From the IMG/VR virus record IMGVR_UViG_3300045988_119033: a stretch of DNA of 64,000 nt. One strand, 5' to 3'. The notes below the pieces were generated by a model, which saw only the letters and a program-made list of their open reading frames with translations, had not been told where the DNA came from and did no database searches. Shown in pieces: positions 3,001 through 46,520 of the stretch; within the stretch, counting starts at the first letter, position 1; each line of letters begins with the position of its first letter. Source of the stretch: a virus. Position numbers and translations under genes: made by a program.

Positions 3001-4932
3001 CCTGTTTTTTATAATAGCGCTTTTGGTATTGGAGACATGATACCATTCCCATACATGGATTACAGAAATGTAGGGTATCCAAGATATTTTGTTAATTATG
3101 ATACTGGAGAAGACGCTCTTGAGACAATAGATAACGAACGTTTCAATAGCTGGACATCATCTAATAAAGGAAGATACGCTTTTTATCCAAACAGGAAGAG
3201 CTTATACGAATTAAATGGTGACACATCCGGCAGGTACGTTAATGGAAGATTTTATACATGGTTCTATGGCATTCCTCAGTTCCTTGTAGAGTCTGAAATA
3301 AATTGTAATTTCAGATTAGAGGGCCCTCAGCCTTATGAATTATTCTATCCAAAAGTAGGAGATTTTGTTTGGTGGACACAAGAAAAGAACGTATCTATCC
3401 ATAGGGATAATGATTACAAGATAAGTCCTATCTATTCGTCGAGGATGACACTAACACCAAATGTATTGCCGGCAACGTACGAACGACGTTTTTATGACTG
3501 TGCTTACCAACGTCCTAATGGTGTTATATGGAGTAGGGCTGATGTATCTGAAAACAGTCAAACAGATCCGTGGCTGACGTACAAGCCTATGGACTATCAT
3601 GAGTTCCCAACCAACAACGGGAAGCTTATTCACATGAAGCGTATTGAATCCGATCAGATTCTTGTTAGATTCGAGGATCAGGTTTCGCTCCATAACGCCA
3701 TAGACGTAATCAAGGAGCGTACCTCCCCAGGGCGGGCTGAGATGGGCACCGGCGGTCTGTTCGCGTCCCGGCCTCTGGAGTACAACACGACCGACCTTGG
3801 CTATTCTGGAACCCAGAGTACTGAAATAATTAGTTCAGAATTTGGTCACTTCTGGGTGGATACTAAAAGAGCACAGGTGTTCATGACCGATCCAAATGGA
3901 CGCAATCTTAAGGAACTTAGTGTAGGTATCAGACATTGGCTTAAGCGTCATCTTCCGTTTAAGATCCTTAGATACGGAATAACTAATATCTTAACCGGTA
4001 CAGAGATGACAGAAGAAGATACAGACAATAAATTTATCGGTCTTGGTCTGTCTCTTGGATGGGATAACAGGTATAAGAGGGTACTTATCACGAAAAAAGA
4101 TTATATACCTGTTAAGAACCCGGCATATTATAAATATGATGGTGGAAGGTTCTTGTACAATGAAACAGAGGTGCTGTCAAACGATAAGAAAATATCTTTA
4201 AAAGACGAACAGTATTTCAAGGACGTGTCGTTCACTATCGGATATTCGTGTCTGAAACAAGAATGGATTTCTTATTATTCATTCTGTCCTGACTATTATA
4301 TAGAACAGCAACAATATTTCCAGACAGGAATAAACTTCCCGGCATCGGATGAAGAAGGTGGCTTATGGAGCCATTTGCTGACGAATAAGAGCTTTCAGAC
4401 ATTTTACGGAGCAACATATCCATTTATATTAGAAGTGCCGATAAAAGAGAAATATAACGGTTCTACGCTGGCTTCTGTTGAGTATGAGCTTGATGCGAGG
4501 AAATACGTCGATGATGTGAATTACACTCTTGACAGGAAAGTAGGTTTAGATACGATAACTATCTACAACGACACAAACAACTCAGGCGAAATTCATCTTG
4601 TTCCAGAAAAAAAGAATAATTTAGCGCAGCGTATATCGTATCCGAAGATCGTAGGCGACCATACTGAGATTCTGGATACCGAGGTATATAGAAGACATAA
4701 GTTAAACGACTTCTTTAATAGGGTTGACGATGACCGATCTGAAACACCTATCTGGATCAAGGACGATAACGATATAAATAAGTCGGTTAATCCTGATGCT
4801 CTTAATTTTAGACGGTCATGGCTTGATAGGTTAAGAGGAAGTTGGATGCTGATGAGGATAAAGAAAGTAATTAGCAACCGGAAGATTATATTCCAGTGGT
4901 TGATTTCTGAAGATAAGATTAAGAATAGATGA
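58..4932 (+). CDS. Giant virion-associated protein (1624 aa), possibly a tail fibre/spike-like structural protein; function not recognisable
   Basis: Uninterrupted 4.9 kb ORF in the plus-strand structural block, followed immediately by a Gly-rich fibre-like gene. No motif recognised. Confidence 0.45.
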   Translation: MEHVSTDYLYTTGGENQNKYSVLFNYDTMDSLSEWMDKAFFGDNAGDVSGDGERHLCSEFYPYLQPGSILKTVSDAIYVLDTMPCTCGCYIENYCSDPTVSRSDYNNFQNNNYILGGYILHIDGWSQKINGKGNWRAGRSTSTVINDQYRSKNGPKYCIEQFWPDASNKLQDMIYKNSDTGIPETDWEFEGYANNATFENPTGDKLNIGFASEFVVRKFVRNVMTNARFIRINRPEEWDIEGYKEENKVLYLEALGKIDGIMDAVSTNYVRVSFWKDIETWNPLGTIPVDFDRPEHASGHSVIINIARPAWGTIDDKFFKETIKQNYFYVTIESPVVAVPWIMTFRKIQFCEYKNKDTPDEEEEPSKKPSRAILGVSFVTGKTIYPYIFGIREKEVNKIDLSVDSITLRSTVLFASKCQTCGDRPINCKPRPYKYGDFAYWESSEKYPANFELYDSSRMKIDTGRSYDDPKKTEAYSNIMNKLTEYYGAPLSDKNGLSYFKGHSYGGIDTSTIFCQQPIRHYRFPDNKHIPFMNSDERGYDIASEIYPVGIMVDENTIQVFLDFAVDSGLITQQQRDTIVGYELYRGDRRLNRSVVASGLAYDMLRYIGDDGNVNIYPNYPYNDLSQDQYNYTSGKRDEFISHPFDKGGNVWYSFCSPDIYFNKPELPNEVCIDGFQRGMSVGSFVPVEDHPKWTILGPAAYTMAASLAAVESSATIAAMIAEELQIRAQSGYIGGSAGLTGGGFLTNLSVAMLFSSMVSTISQTLAKGPILYGKYRYDWLNTFINNGPRRNHAWYYTSVGLYNSMIGITDQDKYERNFARGLSSVKYIKSGVYPMMDASMSSKWGTGRNDNEGRFLFVNNIDRESSLFLSFGDPGEKGDGKSKYLLEYPNYVYNYDSSRIDDSVIAGSDVVAGRTFEQSKTVSYICSPYMRLMRYRPDQYGQIEDIKWISIGGCGFFTNEKKLMFGGDTVITRFSLKRKFPVFYNSAFGIGDMIPFPYMDYRNVGYPRYFVNYDTGEDALETIDNERFNSWTSSNKGRYAFYPNRKSLYELNGDTSGRYVNGRFYTWFYGIPQFLVESEINCNFRLEGPQPYELFYPKVGDFVWWTQEKNVSIHRDNDYKISPIYSSRMTLTPNVLPATYERRFYDCAYQRPNGVIWSRADVSENSQTDPWLTYKPMDYHEFPTNNGKLIHMKRIESDQILVRFEDQVSLHNAIDVIKERTSPGRAEMGTGGLFASRPLEYNTTDLGYSGTQSTEIISSEFGHFWVDTKRAQVFMTDPNGRNLKELSVGIRHWLKRHLPFKILRYGITNILTGTEMTEEDTDNKFIGLGLSLGWDNRYKRVLITKKDYIPVKNPAYYKYDGGRFLYNETEVLSNDKKISLKDEQYFKDVSFTIGYSCLKQEWISYYSFCPDYYIEQQQYFQTGINFPASDEEGGLWSHLLTNKSFQTFYGATYPFILEVPIKEKYNGSTLASVEYELDARKYVDDVNYTLDRKVGLDTITIYNDTNNSGEIHLVPEKKNNLAQRISYPKIVGDHTEILDTEVYRRHKLNDFFNRVDDDRSETPIWIKDDNDINKSVNPDALNFRRSWLDRLRGSWMLMRIKKVISNRKIIFQWLISEDKIKNR

Positions 4933-6378: not shown

Positions 6379-6409
6379 AGCAGTGGTAGTAATATCACTG
6401 CTTTTTTTG
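6379..6409 (+). terminator. Rho-independent terminator ending the tRNA-like array
   Basis: Stem AGCAGTG/CACTGCT with a 10-nt loop, followed by TTTTTTTGT. Confidence 0.6.
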
Positions 6410-6434
6410 TATAACACTTTAAAGAAAACAACAA

Positions 6435-8069
6435 ATGGGAAAGTTTAACAAAAAGGATGAAGGTGTTAAACCTACGATCGTGAATCACATGGGAGAGAAG
6501 GCGTATAAGCCTAACGCAGAAGAAGAGTTGGTATCTACGGTAATGACTACCATGTTATCTGATTCTTATTATGAGAAAGAAAAAGATAAAGTAGAAAGAA
6601 TTAAGAGCCTTATGGATCAAATAGATCCGTATTTCGCAGCACAAACAGCATTGTATGTCAGGAAAGAAGGAAAGCTTAGGTCAGTAACGCATCTTATGGC
6701 TTCTGTCCTTGCCAGCAAAGCATCGGGTAAGGAATGGGCTTCAAGGTTCTATAACAAGATCGTTATGCGTCCTGATGATATGAGCGAAATCCTTGGCTGT
6801 TATGCGGCTCTTAACGACAAAAATCCAAAGAAGTTAAGAGGAATATCCAGCGCTATTAAGAAAGGATTTAAGACGGCTTTGGAAGGTCTTGATCCGTATC
6901 GGATTGATAAGTATAAGATGGACAGTAGGGTCATTACTATGGTTGACTTAGTAAACTTATTTCACCCTAAAGGCAATCAGGCTAACAAAACGGCTTTCCA
7001 GTACCTTATAGAAGGTAGGTCTTTGTCTGGATTATACGAAAGCAAGATTCTTGAAAAAGAAATGTCTAAAGCCGGACAGGATAAGAAAGATAATAAGGAA
7101 AAGAAAGAAGCTTTAGGTGACGCTATTCGGGACGTGGTTTCTAATGTAAAAGGTATGCCTATTTTTAATATGGTTCGTAACCTTGTAAACATAATCAAAT
7201 ACGCACCTGATCAAATAGATGAAGTTTGTAGGCAGCTTACAATAGAAGAGAAGGTGCTTAATTCGAAGATGCTTCCTTTCCGTTTTGCTTCAGCTTTCAA
7301 AGAGGTTGAAAATATGGGCACTGATGGTTCCGATAACGATATTGTATTTGAGTCGGATAAAAAACGAGCTAAATTAACAGCGCGTAATAAATATAAGATT
7401 TTAGATGCGTTGGAGAAAGCCATAACCATCTCCTGCAAGAACTTGCCGGTATTGGAGGGGCGGTCGGCTATCCTGATTGACCACTCTGGCTCTGTACGTG
7501 GAGATATGGGAGGATCTTCTGAAGTGTCTGCCTTTAGCAAAACAAATACGGCTGTCATTGGTAACTTGTTTGGCTGTATGATTGCTTCTGTGCTTCCTGA
7601 CGTATTTATTGGTATGTTTGGTGACAAACTTATCAATTACGAATATGATAGAAGCAGAGGTGTTTTATGGAACAACAAAAAATCTTTTACTGCCGGAGGA
7701 GAATGCGGTGGTGCTACTGAAAACGGTCTTTTTGCATTCTTGGAAAAGTGCATCAAAGATAAGATAAAAGTAGATAACTTGTACGTTATTTCAGATATGC
7801 AGATAGGAGATGGCGAATCTATTGTATGGGAAAAAAGTTCCAATTATGAATATGGTAAATTCGCTGAACTTTTGAAAAAGTTCAAGAAAGTGAATCCAAA
7901 TTGCAAAATCGTTTCTATTTCTATTCAAGGATATGGAAGTGAGATGTTTTACAGAGGATCTAATATCTTGAACATAGCTGGCTGGTCAGAATCTATCTTC
8001 GATGTTATTAACAGCAAGTTCTGCGGATATAAGAATATGATTGAGGAAATTAAGAAAATAAAAATATAA
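6435..8069 (+). CDS. rsr: Ro60/Rsr orthologue (TROVE domain plus C-terminal vWA domain with a DxSGS MIDAS motif)
   Basis: 544 aa, the size of Ro60. The N-terminal TROVE-like stretch (SDSYYEKEK ... FAAQTALYVRKEG) aligns by eye to Ro60. The C-terminal vWA region carries ILIDHSGSV (DxSGS), AGGECG and LYVISDMQ in the order of the Ro60 vWA domain. Confidence 0.7.
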   Translation: MGKFNKKDEGVKPTIVNHMGEKAYKPNAEEELVSTVMTTMLSDSYYEKEKDKVERIKSLMDQIDPYFAAQTALYVRKEGKLRSVTHLMASVLASKASGKEWASRFYNKIVMRPDDMSEILGCYAALNDKNPKKLRGISSAIKKGFKTALEGLDPYRIDKYKMDSRVITMVDLVNLFHPKGNQANKTAFQYLIEGRSLSGLYESKILEKEMSKAGQDKKDNKEKKEALGDAIRDVVSNVKGMPIFNMVRNLVNIIKYAPDQIDEVCRQLTIEEKVLNSKMLPFRFASAFKEVENMGTDGSDNDIVFESDKKRAKLTARNKYKILDALEKAITISCKNLPVLEGRSAILIDHSGSVRGDMGGSSEVSAFSKTNTAVIGNLFGCMIASVLPDVFIGMFGDKLINYEYDRSRGVLWNNKKSFTAGGECGGATENGLFAFLEKCIKDKIKVDNLYVISDMQIGDGESIVWEKSSNYEYGKFAELLKKFKKVNPNCKIVSISIQGYGSEMFYRGSNILNIAGWSESIFDVINSKFCGYKNMIEEIKKIKI

Positions 8070-31002: not shown

Positions 31003-31374
31003 ATGATAGTATATGATTTAAATTCAGGACAAAGAGAATATCCTGGATATGACGAGATAGAAGATAGACGAGGCAGAGGTCGTAGTCGTCGTTCTGATGG
31101 GACGTACATGGGTTACGGACATGGATTCCTTCCTCCTTATGACCATTATGGTATGCATGAAAAAATGAAAGAGATGGAAGAACGTGAAAACGAGTTGGAA
31201 GAAAGAGAAAGAAGACTCGAAGAACGCGAACGCCGTCATGAAATGGAGGACCGGGAATACCGGAGGATGGGTTACGAATCTTACCCGACCGATTATTATG
31301 GAGACGACAGATACTACGGTGATGGTCCCCAGATGCGTAGAGGTAGGGGAAGAGGTCGTGGTCGTTCTTATTGA
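31003..31374 (+). CDS. RG/RGG-, Tyr- and Glu/Arg-rich low-complexity protein (123 aa)
   Basis: RGRGRSRRS ... ERERRLEERERRHE ... DYYGDDRYYGDG ... RRGRGRGRGRSY. Ends at a TGA that is in frame with ORF 31468. Confidence 0.5.
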   Translation: MIVYDLNSGQREYPGYDEIEDRRGRGRSRRSDGTYMGYGHGFLPPYDHYGMHEKMKEMEERENELEERERRLEERERRHEMEDREYRRMGYESYPTDYYGDDRYYGDGPQMRRGRGRGRGRSY

Positions 31375-31467: not shown

Positions 31468-31761
31468 ATGGTTAACGTCGATGGATCTAAAAGGATCTGG
31501 AAGCAGTCGGAGATAAAAGATATTTTTGAAAAGTGCGGAGCGAAGAAGCCGGATAAAGCGACATGGGGCGATGTCCAATATGTCTTTGCAATGTACTATT
31601 CGGATGGCTTCCCGAAGATCTTCAAATGTGAGAACGAGCTGGTGAAAGCTACGTTAATGTATTTGAATGATCCGGATGCCCCCGAAGGAGTAGCCTTTAT
31701 AAGATGGCTTGCCGTGCAAGATTACCTCGGCGAAAAAATAAGCTGGAAGGATCTGACCTGA
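31468..31761 (+). CDS. Hypothetical protein (97 aa). Same frame as the RG-rich gene, separated from it by a single TGA and 31 sense codons
   Basis: First ATG at 31468. The in-frame upstream stretch GADAEDPAYQKYVDTYGYHFSNELADEAVKK has no start codon. Confidence 0.4.
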   Translation: MVNVDGSKRIWKQSEIKDIFEKCGAKKPDKATWGDVQYVFAMYYSDGFPKIFKCENELVKATLMYLNDPDAPEGVAFIRWLAVQDYLGEKISWKDLT

Positions 31762-32877: not shown

Positions 32878-33513
32878 ATGGTTAGAATCGCATATTTCGG
32901 AACCAATGGCTGCCCTGGTCATCACGTTATTCCAATACGAGGTAAATTTACGGAAGAGGATGTTAAGGTAATAGAATCTGTAGATTGTGATGATTTCTAT
33001 AAGGTGTTTGATGTCATGCGTTTTAAGATAGCTGAGTTTAAAGGATGGACGATATTGGGAATCCCGGCAAGCTTAGACGATCATAGACCTGGAAGCAAAA
33101 CCGTTATCTTCATAGAGGGTAAAGCTAACGAAGCTGACTTTATGGAAGTCATACAAGAGTATTCTTTTCTTAAAAATAAGGTAAAGAAACTTGCCGAATT
33201 GTATCATGATGGAGAATGGCTTGCGACTGGTAAATTGAATCAAGATCCGCCTACTAACGAGGAGCGGTTTCAATTTACGTTAGACAAGGATGATATTATT
33301 AACATGATTAGGGGAGTCGATTTAGATCCTTATTCTGATGTGGCGAATGAAATGGAGAAAATTGGATTGGGGAAATCATCTGATTCTTCATATGATGGTC
33401 CCATATGGTCTTGGTTTGCTAACAAAGTAGATCTTTTGCAGAAGAATAATGTATGGGATGTTTTTTCTGCTAAGTTCTTATGGGATTTGTATTGTAGGAT
33501 AAAGAAAGTATAG
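32878..33513 (+). CDS. Hypothetical protein (211 aa)
   Basis: ORF starting 2 nt after the upstream stop. No domain recognised. Confidence 0.5.
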   Translation: MVRIAYFGTNGCPGHHVIPIRGKFTEEDVKVIESVDCDDFYKVFDVMRFKIAEFKGWTILGIPASLDDHRPGSKTVIFIEGKANEADFMEVIQEYSFLKNKVKKLAELYHDGEWLATGKLNQDPPTNEERFQFTLDKDDIINMIRGVDLDPYSDVANEMEKIGLGKSSDSSYDGPIWSWFANKVDLLQKNNVWDVFSAKFLWDLYCRIKKV

Positions 33514-33524
33514 TAACAATTAAT

Positions 33525-34295
33525 TTGAAACAAATTATGGAATTAAAAGATTTTAAAGATGTAGTTAGAGCAATGACAAAAGAAGAGTTCGAATCAGCAA
33601 TCAACGAAGATATTAAATTCGTTGAAAGATTTAAGCATTTTTTTAAACATGATGATGTTGCGAGGATAATAGAACACGTAAAGTCAGTGTTAGAAGCATC
33701 AGTGGACTACTGCTATCCGAATCATCCTGAACCTAAAGCAGAACCTGGAGACATGGGAGAGGTTTCTGATGGATACCATACTTTCAATGAATTGTATCGG
33801 TACCGCATGTTGTATAACGCCGCCTTTTTTAATCTATTAGCCAGAAATGGACAGGTTGAAGTTTGCAAATCAAGAAAGCACAGCGATGGAGAAAAATGTT
33901 TCGGTTCTGATGACTGGTTTATTGTGATGGCGATCCTGCCTACCGGTCAGGTATCTAATCACTATAAAAGCAAATACTGGGATTTGTTTGATGTTCCTGA
34001 AAGAGAAACCGCTTTCGAATACGATGGCCATACACCAAATGAAGCTGCTGATAGGATAGAAAAGTACCTTAAGTTGCCTTGTTACGGTATGACGTTTGAA
34101 AAGGCTTTGGAATCACTCAAATTGGGTCACAAGATAAAGAGAACTGATTGGGGTGGAAAGTATATCCAGATGTTTGTTTCGTATTCTAACATAATTTTAT
34201 TAATGGTAGATACAGATCAAAAGTCGACAACAGAATGGATCCCTTCTTATAACGATATAGTGTCTAACGACTGGATAGTATTACAATTACAATGA
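33525..34295 (+). CDS. Two-domain protein: unknown N-terminal domain plus a C-terminal DUF2829-like domain
   Basis: The C-terminus MTFEKALESLKLGHKIKRTDWGGKYI ... WIPSYNDIVSNDWIVLQ fits the remembered DUF2829 pattern (MxFxEALxxLKxGKKVxRxGWxGK ... W.P...DLL..DW). Confidence 0.5.
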   Translation: MKQIMELKDFKDVVRAMTKEEFESAINEDIKFVERFKHFFKHDDVARIIEHVKSVLEASVDYCYPNHPEPKAEPGDMGEVSDGYHTFNELYRYRMLYNAAFFNLLARNGQVEVCKSRKHSDGEKCFGSDDWFIVMAILPTGQVSNHYKSKYWDLFDVPERETAFEYDGHTPNEAADRIEKYLKLPCYGMTFEKALESLKLGHKIKRTDWGGKYIQMFVSYSNIILLMVDTDQKSTTEWIPSYNDIVSNDWIVLQLQ

Positions 34296-34567
34296 GTTTA
34301 TTTGTATGTTCAAAGTGTGGCTGTATAGATAATACAGCCACATCATGTTACTGGGCTCTTATAAGACCTTGTAAGAATCGTATTTACGATAAGTCGCTAA
34401 AGGGATATGAAGGCAAGCCTCTTTGTTCTGAATGTGCCGCTATTGAATATAGTAAGGGAGACGAAGTGGTGGTAGTTCCTGGAACGTGGCACGGTAAGTT
34501 CAAGAAAGAATGGCCTACTGAAGAAGAAAAGAAGCATATTGGTAAAAATGGTATTTTAAATTATTGA
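34292..34567 (+). CDS. Zinc-ribbon protein (91 aa)
   Basis: CxxC ... C ... C and CxxC spacing. Start overlaps the upstream stop. Confidence 0.45.
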   Translation: MSLFVCSKCGCIDNTATSCYWALIRPCKNRIYDKSLKGYEGKPLCSECAAIEYSKGDEVVVVPGTWHGKFKKEWPTEEEKKHIGKNGILNY

Positions 34568-45175: not shown

Positions 45176-46520
45176 TTACGATCTTTAACAAATCCCCTGC
45201 TTTTAAGCAGGGGATCAATGATTCTTTTATTCATATATGTATTTTTAAATAATTGATTCTGATATATGCCAAAAAGTTATTATTATATTTGTATCATAAA
45301 TGTGGTTAAAAATGATTTCATACAAATATAACATATATTATTCAAAGAAAACGAAGTATCTTGTCAAGATACTTCGCGAATGCTGTTTTGTATGGAATCA
45401 TGCTTTAGCTCTACAACGTAGGTATTACAAACTGTTTGGGAAATATATCTCAGTTGGCAAGATGCAAAAACATTTCTCTAAAAGAATTAAGAGAAATCTT
45501 CTTCATTCCCAAACAACACAAGAAATTATTCAAAGGTTAGATTCAGCATACAATCGCTTCTTCAAGAAGTTGGCTAAACGACCTCCTAAGTTTAAATCAC
45601 CGGAGAAATTCAATTCTTTTGTATTCAAACAAGGAGGGTTTACCCTGAATGGAAATTGTCTAACAATTAACAAAGGAAAGAAACATTTTAAGTTTTCATA
45701 CAGTAGACCTTATGAAGGTAATGTTAAACAAATTAGAATAGTTAGAGAAACCTGTTCCCGTTTTAGTTTGATTATAGTTACAGACCATAATCCTGTAAAC
45801 TCTTATAGAAAGACACATGATGGTGCATCTATCGGATTGGATTTTGGTCTGAAAACTTATCTAACTAAAAGTGATGGTAGCAAAATCGATTCTCCATTAT
45901 TCCTCAAACAATATCAAAACAAGATTAGAAAACTAAACAAACGGTTTTCTAATGCAAAGAAAGGATCCAATAATAAAAGAAGGAGACTGTTTGAACTACA
46001 ACAAGCGTATCGTAAAATAAACAATCTTCGATCAGACTTTCAATGGAAATTAGCTCATGATTTGTGTAAACAATATGATTATATTTTTATTGAAGATCTA
46101 AACATTGAAGGAATGAAACGTTTGTGGGGAAAGAAAGTTTCTGATCTCAGTCATTCTTCTTTTATTGACAAACTTACATATATTGCTTCAAAGTATGGAG
46201 TGATAGTACATAAGATTGACAAATGGTATCCTTCTTCCAAAACTTGTGAATGTGGCTGCATTAATAAAGGACTGTCGTTACGCGACCGCACGTGGGTATG
46301 CCCGTCGTGCGGCGCGGTCAACGACCGTGATGTTCTTGCATCCCGTAATATACTTCGGAAGGGCATTTCCGAATTGGAGAGTAAGAGTAATTCCAACGAT
46401 AGTAATGTCGGGGTTTCTTGCGTTTGTATCCAAGAATCCCATTTGCTTTAGCGATGGGAGTATGTCAAGATCTTAATAGAATCTCCGATATTGTATTCCC
46501 CTTGGTATCCAACGAATTTT
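45176..46520 (+). mobile_element. Putative IS200/IS605-family element carrying tnpB only (IS1341-like); boundaries approximate
   Basis: TTAC at 45176-45179 followed 12 nt later by the subterminal hairpin ATCCCCTGC-TTTTAA-GCAGGGGAT (45192-45215). The 3' 100 nt of tnpB is GC-rich and hairpin-forming. No tnpA in the window. Confidence 0.45.
45300..46451 (+). CDS. tnpB: TnpB (IS200/IS605 OrfB-family RNA-guided endonuclease)
   Basis: The N-terminus YKYNIYYSKKTKYLVKILRECCFVWNHALALQRRYYKLFGKYIS matches the TnpB consensus. The C-terminus has a RuvC-like IFIEDLNIEG and a CxxC...CxxC zinc finger, CECGCINKG...WVCPSCGAVNDRDVLASRNI. Confidence 0.85.
   Translation: MWLKMISYKYNIYYSKKTKYLVKILRECCFVWNHALALQRRYYKLFGKYISVGKMQKHFSKRIKRNLLHSQTTQEIIQRLDSAYNRFFKKLAKRPPKFKSPEKFNSFVFKQGGFTLNGNCLTINKGKKHFKFSYSRPYEGNVKQIRIVRETCSRFSLIIVTDHNPVNSYRKTHDGASIGLDFGLKTYLTKSDGSKIDSPLFLKQYQNKIRKLNKRFSNAKKGSNNKRRRLFELQQAYRKINNLRSDFQWKLAHDLCKQYDYIFIEDLNIEGMKRLWGKKVSDLSHSSFIDKLTYIASKYGVIVHKIDKWYPSSKTCECGCINKGLSLRDRTWVCPSCGAVNDRDVLASRNILRKGISELESKSNSNDSNVGVSCVCIQESHLL

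What the first reader, a model, noticed from the sequence alone, without database searches (positions are those of the whole stretch)
33525..34295. Fusion protein whose C-terminal 75 aa match the DUF2829 pattern (the fold used by Thoeris anti-defence Tad2)
The C-terminus MTFEKALESLKLGHKIKRTDWGGKYI...WIPSYNDIVSNDWIVLQ reproduces the hallmark spacing of DUF2829 (MxFxEAL..LK.GKK..R.GW.GK ... W.PSQ.DLL..DW). Tad2-type DUF2829 proteins sequester cyclic nucleotide immune signals. Here the domain is fused to a roughly 180-aa unknown N-terminal domain (YHTFNELYRYRMLYNAAFF...), which is not the stand-alone form usually described.
Basis: partly seen in the sequence, partly recalled or inferred. Interest (0 to 1): 0.6.

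Follow-up and report, generated by a model that had tools for sequence, protein, structure and literature searches.

The report
Phage WDGH–Tad2 fusion anti-defence candidate
A gut phage gene joins a minimal copy of the Tad2 "sponge" domain, which phages use to soak up bacterial immune alarm molecules, to a very widespread, very conserved phage domain (WDGH) with no known function or solved structure, which marks WDGH as a testable candidate for a new anti-immunity module.

Summary

The Tad2 module is a minimal form. The β2–β5 insertion is almost absent. The pocket residues W205, W234, S237 and D240 are kept, but the Asn of the GWNG motif is Gly.

The fusion is the norm in this roughly 150-kb human-gut phage clade (74 of 80 relatives). 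Some relatives are split by a 1-nt deletion, and others are disrupted by an HNH element. More distant relatives carry WDGH–Sequestin–Tad2.

The most likely function is a two-module counter-defence protein: a nucleotide-signal sponge plus a linked module of unknown activity. Tad2 fusions to other sponges are already published; the WDGH partner was not described in any paper I found. Interest is moderate.

The parts
33537..34295 (+). Coding sequence of the fusion protein, 252 aa plus stop. An alternative upstream TTG lies at 33525.
   Evidence: ORF list and sequence. The homologue WOZ57315.1 in phage csAssE-Sib is annotated with the same 252-aa extent. 1173 homologues were found.
33537..33746 (+). 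N-terminal leader, aa 1-70. Two long helices (15-35 and 39-59) are followed by a disordered linker. This is the variable module, and other N-terminal modules replace it in relatives.
   Evidence: AlphaFold2 model: pLDDT 72-86 for the helices and below 50 for residues 63-70. Alignment A1 shows alternative N-termini. Mean pairwise identity is 44%.
33756..34064 (+). WDGH domain (Pfam PF25311), aa 74-176. The fold is helix, three-stranded sheet, short helix, C-terminal helix. Invariant residues: D78 G79 H81 E85 R90 N99 K111 S112 H115 Q138 N141 H142 Y143 W148 D163 H165. Two DG(x)HT loops occur (SDGYHTF 77-83, YDGHTP 162-167), each leading into a helix.
34065..34088 (+). Inter-domain linker, aa 177-184 (YLKLPCYG). 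In the relative L007, a 1-nt deletion here (one T of the TT at 34082-34083) splits the gene in two.
   Evidence: DNA alignment A4. Gene calls in L007.
34089..34292 (+). Minimal Tad2-like (DUF2829, PF11195) module, aa 185-252. It begins with an internal ATG (34089-34091), which is the start codon of the stand-alone 68-aa gene in split relatives. Pocket-equivalent residues: W205 (34149-34151), G206 (Asn in solved Tad2s), W234 (34236-34238), S237, N239, D240 (34254-34256).
34292..34567 (+). Downstream 91-aa Cys-rich ORF. Its ATG overlaps the stop codon of the fusion gene (ATGA), so the two are probably co-translated. It matches phrog_11861, of unknown function. It is listed as context and is not shown to be part of the system.

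Best explanation
This is an accessory counter-defence gene of a large (about 150 kb) human-gut phage, and it encodes a modular protein.

C-terminal module (68 aa). It has a Tad2 fold. By analogy with solved Tad2 proteins it most likely assembles into a homo-oligomer, with pockets at the protomer interfaces lined by W205, W234, S237 and D240. Those pockets would bind and sequester a nucleotide-derived immune signal, so the host effector is never switched on. An ADP-ribose-type product of TIR/Thoeris systems is the most likely ligand class. The module lacks the beta2-beta5 insertion that forms the cyclic-dinucleotide pocket of HgmTad2, and it has Gly in place of the phosphate-contacting Asn. It is therefore probably a single-pocket sponge whose ligand preference differs from SPO1 Tad2 and HgmTad2.

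WDGH domain. It is carried on the same polypeptide and is functionally linked to the sponge. Its many invariant His, Asp, Lys, Ser and Arg residues and its extreme conservation suggest an enzyme or a high-specificity binder of a universal small molecule, plausibly a second immune signal or a related nucleotide metabolite. On that reading one protein neutralises two signals, as the published Acb4-Tad2 and Sequestin-Tad2 fusions do.

Shown here: domain identities, fold, residue conservation, architecture statistics, the split and disrupted variants, and the selection regimes.
Inferred: oligomerisation, ligand binding, any activity of WDGH, and the anti-defence phenotype.

For: 2. Pocket residues. 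SPO1 Tad2 binds gcADPR through W25, N26, W73, S76, T78 and D79. HgmTad2 uses W21, N22, G23, W87, S90, T92 and D93. The phmmer alignments map these to W205, G206, G207, W234, S237, N239 and D240. In 105 WDGH-Tad2 fusions, W205 is kept in 103, W234 in 99, D240 in 100 and S/T237 in 97.

3. Selection. The module is under purifying selection, dN/dS 0.28 over 75 close relatives.

4. Functional linkage by gene fusion and fission. 74 of 80 close viral relatives are fused. L007 and L068 are split into adjacent WDGH and 68-aa Tad2 genes, in L007 by a single-base deletion.

5. Sponge company. Relatives such as P0109 are WDGH-Sequestin-Tad2. Sequestin (PF21825) is an experimentally shown 3'cADPR sponge that was itself found through its fusion to Tad2.

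6. Dispensability. In 5 of 80 relatives the Tad2 module is truncated after GMTF. In 4 of these, and in L045, a 406-aa RRXRR-HNH gene follows the truncation point, while WDGH stays intact. This fits an accessory, conditionally useful module.

7. Setting. The gene lies in a block of small genes with no recognised function and variable content; the upstream 211-aa gene is present in 54 of 83 relatives.

8. WDGH as a candidate active module. 25 invariant columns in diverse sequences. dN/dS 0.06. 3,722 clusters at 50% identity.
Against: - No binding, oligomer or phenotype was tested or could be tested here.
- The Asn that contacts the diphosphate in SPO1 and HgmTad2 is Gly in this protein. In HgmTad2 the W21A/N22A double mutant loses binding.
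- Helix alpha2, part of the SPO1 Tad2 dimer interface, lies in the insertion that is missing here, so the tetramer may not form in the same way.
- About a quarter of the sponge homologues tested in PMC12393519 inhibited none of the seven systems tried.
- Across the WDGH family, Tad2 fusion is rare: 3 of 146 sequences scanned, namely the query and 2 of 145 diverse representatives.
- The few other recognisable WDGH partners include DNA-binding domains and a GNAT.
- Stand-alone WDGH genes have no conserved neighbours.
- WDGH conservation is far higher than is usual for sponges, and its overall pI is acidic, 5.3.
Confidence: 0.55

Rival explanations
1. WDGH is the main actor and has nothing to do with immune signals. 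It could be, for example, a nucleic-acid or nucleotide-metabolism enzyme, or a binder of a conserved host machine. The degenerate Tad2-like module then serves only as an oligomerisation, scaffolding or regulatory ligand-sensing appendage.
For: - WDGH is far more conserved than the Tad2 module: 83% against 44% pairwise identity, and dN/dS 0.06 against 0.28.
- WDGH survives when the Tad2 module is destroyed.
- Most WDGH proteins have no Tad2, and in prophages most are stand-alone proteins of 116-200 aa.
- Other partner domains include Bro-N, sigma70_r4, Myb, FaeA HTH and YccV.
- In the P22-like phage BTP1 the WDGH gene sits between the coat and adaptor genes.
- The pocket Asn is lost and the insertion is absent.
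Against: - The residues that line the ligand pocket in solved Tad2s (both Trp, the Asp, the Ser/Thr) are the best-conserved positions of the module. A mere oligomerisation tag would not need them.
- The module can exist as its own 68-aa gene.
- Relatives insert a second proven sponge (Sequestin) between WDGH and Tad2.
Confidence: 0.25
2. The fusion is incidental. Two independent neighbouring accessory genes, a WDGH gene and a small Tad2 sponge gene, have been joined by loss of a stop codon or a frame change. Each module works alone, so the fusion says nothing about WDGH.
For: - The Tad2 module starts with its own Met exactly at the domain boundary.
- One base separates the fused and split states.
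- pTM 0.48 against a mean pLDDT of 82 suggests that the domains do not pack against each other.
- Synonymous divergence of the Tad2 module (dS 0.53) is about three times that of WDGH (dS 0.16). Two distinct Tad2 module types sit behind a nearly constant WDGH, which indicates independent cassette exchange.
Against: - The fused state is kept in 74 of 80 close relatives.
- It also occurs in much more distant proteins with different N-termini, different Tad2 subtypes and an interposed Sequestin. The linkage has therefore been retained or re-created repeatedly.
Confidence: 0.17
3. The similarity is spurious, or the ORF is not a real gene.
For: None found.
Against: - Two Pfam hits lie far above their gathering thresholds.
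- 1173 homologues were found.
- Confident structure models were obtained.
- Both domains are under purifying selection.
Confidence: 0.01

Closest known systems
Tad2 sponges with solved structures: SPO1 Tad2 (gp34.65; 8sme/8smg), HgmTad2 = AcrIIA7 (8kbi-8kbm) and Myroides ModTad2 (9eib)
   Same: - Same Pfam family, PF11195.
- Same N-terminal motif M-x-F-x-x-A-L-x-x-L-K-x-G-x-x-x-x-R and same C-terminal W-x-P-S-x-x-D-x-x-x-x-D-W motif.
- Both pocket Trp residues, the Ser and the Asp are conserved.
- HgmTad2 is, like this protein, from a human gut metagenome and is attributed to Bacteroides phages.
   Different: - This module is the C-terminal third of a 252-aa protein, not a stand-alone protein of 89-104 aa.
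- Only 28 residues separate the two pocket Trp residues, against 47 in SPO1 Tad2 and 65 in HgmTad2. The insertion that holds helix alpha2 and the cyclic-dinucleotide pocket of HgmTad2 is therefore missing.
- GWNGK is DWGGK: the phosphate-contacting Asn is replaced by Gly.
- The residues next to the adenine differ: A78/T82/V84 of HgmTad2 correspond to D225/K229/T231.
- Ligand and oligomeric state are unknown.
Published sponge fusion proteins: Acb4-Tad2 (Pasteurella phage Pm86) and Sequestin(PF21825)-Tad2 or Sequestin-Acb4 (Tal et al. 2025 preprint, PMC12265669)
   Same: - A Tad2 module is joined in one polypeptide to another small phage module.
- Relatives of the window protein contain Sequestin between WDGH and Tad2 (P0109).
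- The guilt-by-fusion logic that led to Sequestin applies here in the same way.
   Different: - The partner here, WDGH (PF25311), has no demonstrated function.
- That paper does not mention it, and neither does any paper in the library.
- It is about 105 aa, alpha+beta, far more conserved than known sponges, and has no solved structural relative.
WDGH-domain proteins (PF25311), for example csAssE-Sib WOZ57315.1, Lactococcus phage P092 X4YUL7, Listeria phage P100 gp128 and Salmonella phage BTP1 gp06
   Same: The WDGH domain is the same, with all invariant residues. The csAssE-Sib protein is the 83%-identical orthologue with the same architecture.
   Different: Most family members are stand-alone or carry other, unannotated extensions. 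None has a known function.
AcrIIA7, 158-aa form (PDB 9kzr)
   Same: It is a solved Tad2-family protein in which the Tad2 domain (about residues 49-152) follows an N-terminal extension.
   Different: Its extension is about 48 aa and is not a WDGH domain. Its Tad2 part is the long-insertion HgmTad2 type.

Membership tests
Tad2-like / DUF2829 (Pfam PF11195) | Significant match to the family HMM above the curated gathering score | tested here: met
   45.4 bits against a cut-off of 25, E 1.2e-11, model positions 1-72 of 73, residues 185-248.
Tad2-like / DUF2829 (Pfam PF11195) | Tad2 core fold: an N-terminal helix packed on an antiparallel beta-sheet, superposable on solved Tad2 structures | tested here: met
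Tad2 sponges (functional class) | Conserved gcADPR-pocket residues: the Trp-Asn of GWNG, the second Trp, and the Ser and Asp of W-x-P-S-x-T-D | tested here: inconclusive
   W205, W234, S237 and D240 are present. The Asn is Gly206, and the Thr (T78 in SPO1, T92 in HgmTad2) is Asn239. Among 105 WDGH-Tad2 fusions the residue after the Trp is G in 43, K in 28 and N in 26.
Tad2 sponges (functional class) | Homotetramer with ligand pockets at protomer interfaces | not testable with these tools
   Only monomer prediction was available. Helix alpha2 of the SPO1 dimer interface lies in the insertion that is absent here.
Tad2 sponges (functional class) | Binds and sequesters an immune signalling nucleotide and rescues phage from Thoeris, CBASS or Pycsar | not testable with these tools
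   This needs biochemistry and phage assays.
HgmTad2-type dual sponge (second pocket for cyclic dinucleotides) | Long beta2-beta5 insertion (residues 32-72 of HgmTad2) that forms the cGG/cGAMP pocket | tested here: not met
   28 residues lie between the two pocket Trp residues, against 65 in HgmTad2. Long-insertion forms do occur in more distant WDGH-Tad2 relatives.
WDGH domain (Pfam PF25311) | Match to the family HMM above the gathering score, with the conserved (W/Y)DGH motif | tested here: met
   124.5 bits against a cut-off of 27, E 2.3e-36, residues 74-176. The motif is YDGH at 162-165. D163 and H165 are invariant in A1, A2 and A3.
Sequestin (Pfam PF21825) | Match to PF21825 in the window protein | tested here: not met
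   The window protein has no hit. The domain is present only in relatives such as P0109, at residues 177-238.
Two-sponge fusion proteins (Acb4-Tad2 and Sequestin-Tad2 type) | Both fused modules are signal-sequestering domains | not testable with these tools
   The Tad2 half is identified. WDGH has no assigned activity, no PDB relative and no literature.
Known signal-degrading anti-defence enzymes with solved folds (for example 2H-phosphoesterase Acb1 and MBL-fold Apyc1), considered for WDGH | Structural similarity of WDGH to a solved enzyme fold | tested here: not met

The most novel reading that the evidence does not exclude
WDGH (PF25311) is a previously unrecognised, very widespread phage counter-defence module with a new fold. 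It would be an enzyme or sponge acting on a nucleotide-derived immune signal or its precursor, and it is revealed here by its recurrent fusion to Tad2 and to Sequestin-Tad2. Sequestin itself was revealed by fusion to Tad2 in the same way. The two DG(x)HT loops at helix N-termini, together with invariant H115, H142, K111 and S112, would form the active or binding site.
Probability: 0.3. Interest if true: 0.8.

Novelty: new variant of a known kind. Interest (0 to 1): 0.55.

Why it matters
Sponge proteins are the main way phages are known to defeat signalling-based immunity (Thoeris, CBASS, Pycsar). New families have recently been found precisely by asking what is fused to Tad2.

This locus supplies such a lead. 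The fusion partner is a domain with about 3,700 clusters at 50% identity. It occurs in phages and prophages assigned to Bacteroidota, Bacillota, Actinomycetota and Pseudomonadota. It is 50-75% identical across those phyla, and it has no known function and no solved structural relative.

If WDGH targets an immune signal, it would add a large and unusually conserved family to the counter-defence repertoire, and possibly a new chemistry.

The minimal 68-aa Tad2 module (no insertion, Asn replaced by Gly) is also a natural test of which Tad2 features are needed for assembly and ligand choice.

If WDGH turns out to be unrelated to immunity, the finding reduces to one more member of the Tad2 family in a gut phage, which is ordinary.

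Tried and rejected
- **Literature on the WDGH domain.** Full-text searches for 'WDGH' and 'PF25311' found nothing relevant. A search for 'csAssE' returned only unrelated papers.
- **NCBIfam and PADLOC.** Neither had a hit for the protein.
- **Zinc site.** I considered a site made of C110, H115 and C121 and rejected it. C110 is His or Val in the wider family and is not among the invariant columns.
- **WDGH as Lockin or Acb5.** These are the new families of PMC12265669. Lockin is a beta-rich hexamer that was not found in any complete phage genome in INPHARED. Acb5 is found mainly in Streptomyces and Mycobacterium phages. Neither description fits WDGH, and the phage distributions differ: WDGH occurs in 191 INPHARED records, mostly Listeria, Bacillus and Salmonella phages. 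This comparison rests on published descriptions only, not on sequences.
- **Guilt by neighbourhood.** A Pfam scan of 126 flanking ORFs around 33 WDGH genes in bacterial genomes showed no recurrent neighbour. The annotated regions in phages Nate, P100, Shbh1, BTP1 and phiAsp2 are mostly hypothetical genes; a NADAR gene next to the Nate copy is a single case.
- **Archaeal host.** The Methanobrevibacter MAG locus L032 is 99.95% identical to the Bacilli MAG locus L030, so I treat it as a binning artefact.
- **'WDGH+RRXRR' as a true architecture.** P0069 is explained by an HNH-element insertion into the Tad2 module.
- **Unbiased sample of viral WDGH loci.** The viral-contig scan returned only near-identical relatives, so it served for population statistics rather than for architectural diversity.

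Full report
**1. The observation**

The ORF listing gives an ORF at 33525..34295 on the + strand, 256 aa from a TTG. An ATG at 33537 gives 252 aa. This is the extent annotated for the orthologue in the closest GenBank record, and I number residues from it.

Pfam finds two domains:
- PF25311 'WDGH domain', residues 74-176, E 2.3e-36, 124.5 bits against a gathering score of 27.
- PF11195 'Thoeris anti-defense 2-like domain', the former DUF2829, residues 185-248, E 1.2e-11, 45.4 bits against 25.

phmmer against all PDB sequences finds only Tad2-family entries:
- HgmTad2/AcrIIA7 8kbi, E 9e-9 with the isolated module.
- SPO1 Tad2 8sme, E 1.5e-7.
- Tad2 8v3e and ModTad2 9eib, E about 7e-6.
- SptTad2 8wjd, E 2e-3.

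**2. Structure**

An AlphaFold2 model was built from a 47-sequence alignment (A1). Mean pLDDT is 82 and pTM is 0.48. It shows:
- a helical hairpin, residues 15-59;
- a disordered linker, residues 63-70;
- an alpha+beta domain, residues 83-179, pLDDT 87-97;
- a C-terminal helix-plus-sheet module, residues 187-249.

The low pTM alongside high local confidence suggests beads on a string.

**3. What kind of Tad2 this is**

The SPO1 Tad2 paper lists W25, N26, W73 and D79 as the main gcADPR contacts. T78, I63 and T65 lie near the adenine, and waters are held by D67, H71 and S76. The HgmTad2 paper lists W21, N22, G23, M76, A78, T82, V84, W87, L88, S90, T92 and D93. It shows that W21A/N22A and S90A/T92A/D93A abolish binding.

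Using the phmmer alignments, these map as follows:

| HgmTad2 residue | Window protein |
|---|---|
| W21 | W205 |
| N22 | G206 |
| G23 | G207 |
| M76 | M223 |
| A78 | D225 |
| T82 | K229 |
| V84 | T231 |
| W87 | W234 |
| L88 | I235 |
| S90 | S237 |
| T92 | N239 |
| D93 | D240 |

The two Trp, the Ser and the Asp are kept. The phosphate-contacting Asn is lost, and the adenine-side residues differ.

Only 28 residues separate the two Trp, against 47 in SPO1 Tad2 and 65 in HgmTad2. The beta2-beta5 insertion is essentially absent. That insertion carries helix alpha2 of the SPO1 dimer interface and forms the cyclic-dinucleotide pocket of HgmTad2.

In 105 WDGH-Tad2 fusions:
- The conserved positions are F187, G197, R202, W205 (103 of 105), W234 (99), P236, S/T237 (97), D240 (100), D245 and W246.
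- The residue after W205 is G in 43, K in 28 and N in 26.
- Asn is retained in the long-insertion forms.

The Tad2 family is now known to bind 3'cADPR, His-ADPR, N7-cADPR, cyclic dinucleotides and cUMP/cCMP, depending on the member. About a quarter of the sponge homologues tested across three families (19 of 84) inhibited none of the seven systems tried. Family membership therefore does not name the ligand.

**4. The N-terminal partner**

WDGH is a Pfam family with no literature in the library searched. It has no NCBIfam or PADLOC model, and its PHROG families are all 'unknown function'.

An exhaustive HMMER search with residues 70-182 against 1.84 billion cluster representatives finds 3,722 proteins at E up to 1e-3 and 404 at E up to 1e-30. 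Their lengths range from 140 to 638 aa, and the domain sits at variable positions.

The domain is remarkably conserved. In a set filtered to below 72% identity, 25 columns are invariant: D78 G79 H81 F83 E85 Y87 R90 N99 K111 S112 H115 G118 F122 F128 L134 G137 Q138 N141 H142 Y143 W148 F151 D163 H165 R173.

Read directly from the sequence, two similar loops occur, SDGYHTF (77-83) and YDGHTP (162-167). Each leads into a helix.

A WDGH-only AlphaFold model is very confident (pLDDT 96.1, pTM 0.85). It nevertheless has no solved relative:
- The profile search of PDB sequences is empty.
- BFVD returns only other WDGH proteins.

A scan of one genome per GTDB species finds WDGH at 50-75% identity in genome or MAG contigs assigned to Bacteroidota, Vibrio, Shewanella, Bifidobacterium, Nocardia, Clostridia, Bacilli, Ignavibacteria, Chitinophagales and others. 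Where Pfam recognises the flanking genes they are mostly phage-type, such as terminase, primase (D5_N/VapE) and NinG. Most copies are stand-alone ORFs of 116-200 aa. The apparent archaeal case is a binning artefact.

**5. How common the fusion is, and in whom**

The window is about 90% identical to phage csAssE-Sib (OR575929.1; 151 kb; human gut). The orthologue there is annotated 'protein of unknown function (DUF2829)'.

About 100 of the 120 best homologues carry both domains. Variants carry Bro-N at the N-terminus or Sequestin (PF21825) between WDGH and Tad2.

Among 80 closely related IMG/VR contigs of 34-155 kb:
- 74 are fused.
- 1 is split.
- 5 end at '...GMTF*'.

Seen from the WDGH side the fusion is rare. 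Only 3 of the 146 sequences scanned (the query and 2 of 145 diverse representatives) have a Tad2-like hit, and most of the rest carry no other Pfam domain.

**6. Natural variants that bear on function**

(a) Split form. In L007 a single-T deletion in the linker (window 34082-34083) ends the WDGH ORF. A 68-aa Tad2-like ORF then starts at the internal Met185, with an ATGA overlap. L068 is also split. This is a Rosetta-stone relationship: the two modules are kept adjacent whether or not they are fused.

(b) Disrupted form. In L045, L088, L112 and L124 (and, as a partial match, L078), a 406-aa RRXRR+HNH gene follows a WDGH ORF that stops after the first codons of the Tad2 module, always at the same point. 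The Tad2 module is therefore dispensable for the phage, as expected of a conditionally useful accessory function, while WDGH is retained.

(c) Selection over 75 fused genes:

| Domain | dN/dS | dS |
|---|---|---|
| WDGH | 0.06 | 0.16 |
| Tad2 | 0.28 | 0.53 |

Both domains are under purifying selection. The Tad2 module is about three times more diverged even at synonymous sites. It falls into two types, and the window carries the minority type, 4 of 75. This points to exchange of Tad2 cassettes behind a nearly constant WDGH. Amino-acid identity in A1 tells the same story: 83% against 44%.

**7. Context**

The gene lies in a run of small, tightly packed + strand genes (31.0-36.1 kb) between very large genes; the csAssE-Sib counterpart of the 2,138-aa ORF downstream is annotated 'structural protein'. 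None of the small neighbours has a family with a recognised function. Replication genes lie on the - strand further on.

The 211-aa gene immediately upstream is present in only 54 of 83 relatives. This is therefore a variable accessory region.

**8. Mechanism**

The best-supported reading is a two-module counter-defence protein.

The C-terminal module most likely oligomerises like Tad2 and sequesters a nucleotide-derived immune signal in a Trp-lined interfacial pocket. An ADP-ribose-type TIR product is the likeliest ligand class. A cyclic-dinucleotide pocket of the HgmTad2 kind is excluded because the insertion is absent.

WDGH is functionally linked to it. Its dense set of invariant polar residues suggests an enzyme or a very specific binder of a universal small molecule.

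The precedent is direct:
- Acb4-Tad2 fusions inhibit both Thoeris and CBASS.
- Sequestin was discovered because it is fused to Tad2 and Acb4.
- Relatives of this protein are WDGH-Sequestin-Tad2.

What is shown here is identity, fold, conservation, architecture and population variation. Oligomerisation, ligand, WDGH activity and phenotype are inferred.

The rivals, with my estimates:
- WDGH has a non-immune role and the Tad2-like part is an appendage, 0.25.
- The fusion is an incidental joining of two independent accessory genes, 0.17.

**9. Comparison with what is known, and novelty**

The C-terminal module is a member of the Tad2-like family. The HMM and fold criteria are met. The pocket criterion is only partly met. 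Tetramer formation and ligand binding could not be tested.

It is not an HgmTad2-type dual sponge. The protein resembles the published sponge fusions in design, but its partner domain is uncharacterised.

The architecture is already catalogued implicitly, through Pfam domains and the GenBank 'DUF2829' annotation. I found no paper that describes or tests it. I therefore rate it a new variant of a known kind.

Interest is 0.55. A specialist would not be surprised by another Tad2 fusion. The WDGH partner is nevertheless a concrete, cheap-to-test lead to a possibly large new family.

Noticed in passing
L045:3416-4636; also L088, L112 and L124 at about 3710-4930, and L078 (partial). The equivalent insertion point in the window is about 34100.: In several close relatives a 406-aa RRXRR+HNH gene sits right after the truncated fusion gene. 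The WDGH ORF always ends at the same point, leaving '...GMTF*', and the Tad2 module and the 91-aa downstream gene are lost. I think it resembles IscB or a homing endonuclease, but I did not test that. It looks like a site-specific mobile element. It also explains the apparent 'WDGH+RRXRR' architecture of P0069.
   Followed up: partly
L007:3001-3749 and L068:2665-3527, against window 34065-34091: A single-base deletion in the linker converts the fused gene into two overlapping genes: WDGH, then a 68-aa Tad2-like gene that starts at the internal Met. The fused and split states differ by one nucleotide.
   Followed up: yes
window 32878-33513 (+): The 211-aa ORF immediately upstream of the fusion gene is present in 54 of 83 relatives and absent from csAssE-Sib and L007. 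It has no Pfam, PHROG or PDB-sequence match. It is a variable accessory gene next to a putative anti-defence gene, so it may be another counter-defence candidate.
   Followed up: partly
window 33756-34292 (WDGH part against Tad2 part of the same gene): Across 75 close relatives, synonymous divergence is about three times higher in the Tad2 module (dS 0.53) than in the adjacent WDGH domain (dS 0.16). Two Tad2 module types are present, and the window has the rare one (4 of 75). This suggests recombinational swapping of the sponge cassette.
   Followed up: partly
window 45300-46451 (+): A 383-aa ORF matches phage 'transposase' families strongly (phrog_506, E 3e-92). I suspect an IS605 OrfB/TnpB type, because such a gene was called in the related contig L004, but I did not test the window ORF for this. 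It suggests a mobile element inside this phage genome.
   Followed up: no
window 31003-31374 (+): A 123-aa ORF has an extremely charged, low-complexity sequence: an ...EERENELEERERRLEERERRHEMEDREYRR... stretch followed by an RGRGRGRGR tail. It has no family match.
   Followed up: no
window 31468-31761 (+): A 97-aa ORF matches Pfam DUF7841 (E 1.5e-9). It is conserved at the same relative position in L007.
   Followed up: no
L030 and L032 (genome contigs): A 7.5-kb WDGH-containing stretch is 99.95% identical between a 'Bacilli' MAG and a 'Methanobrevibacter' MAG, both from goat gut. This is probably the same phage or prophage binned into two genomes, so the archaeal occurrence of WDGH should not be trusted.
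   Followed up: yes
L002 (Salmonella phage BTP1, record 6401-6961) and L003 (Actinoplanes phage phiAsp2, pas24/pas25): In these phages the WDGH-containing gene sits inside the virion-morphogenesis gene block, which is an unusual place for an accessory gene. In BTP1 it lies between the coat and head-tail adaptor genes. In phiAsp2 it lies between the adaptor and the major tail protein.
   Followed up: no
P0144, P0150, P0161, P0170, P0219, P0228 (WDGH representatives of 480-640 aa): Many long WDGH proteins are mosaics of short repeated modules with no Pfam match. Examples are '...IRKEIISFL...WLEKQGE', 'EPKFKVGDW...', 'PATKEQRDLLFSKMKEAGYEWD...KKELKK' and 'WSEEDEKILN...DWLKSLK'. WDGH is embedded in a larger, undescribed modular protein system; I suspect a Bacteroidota origin but did not check it.
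   Followed up: no
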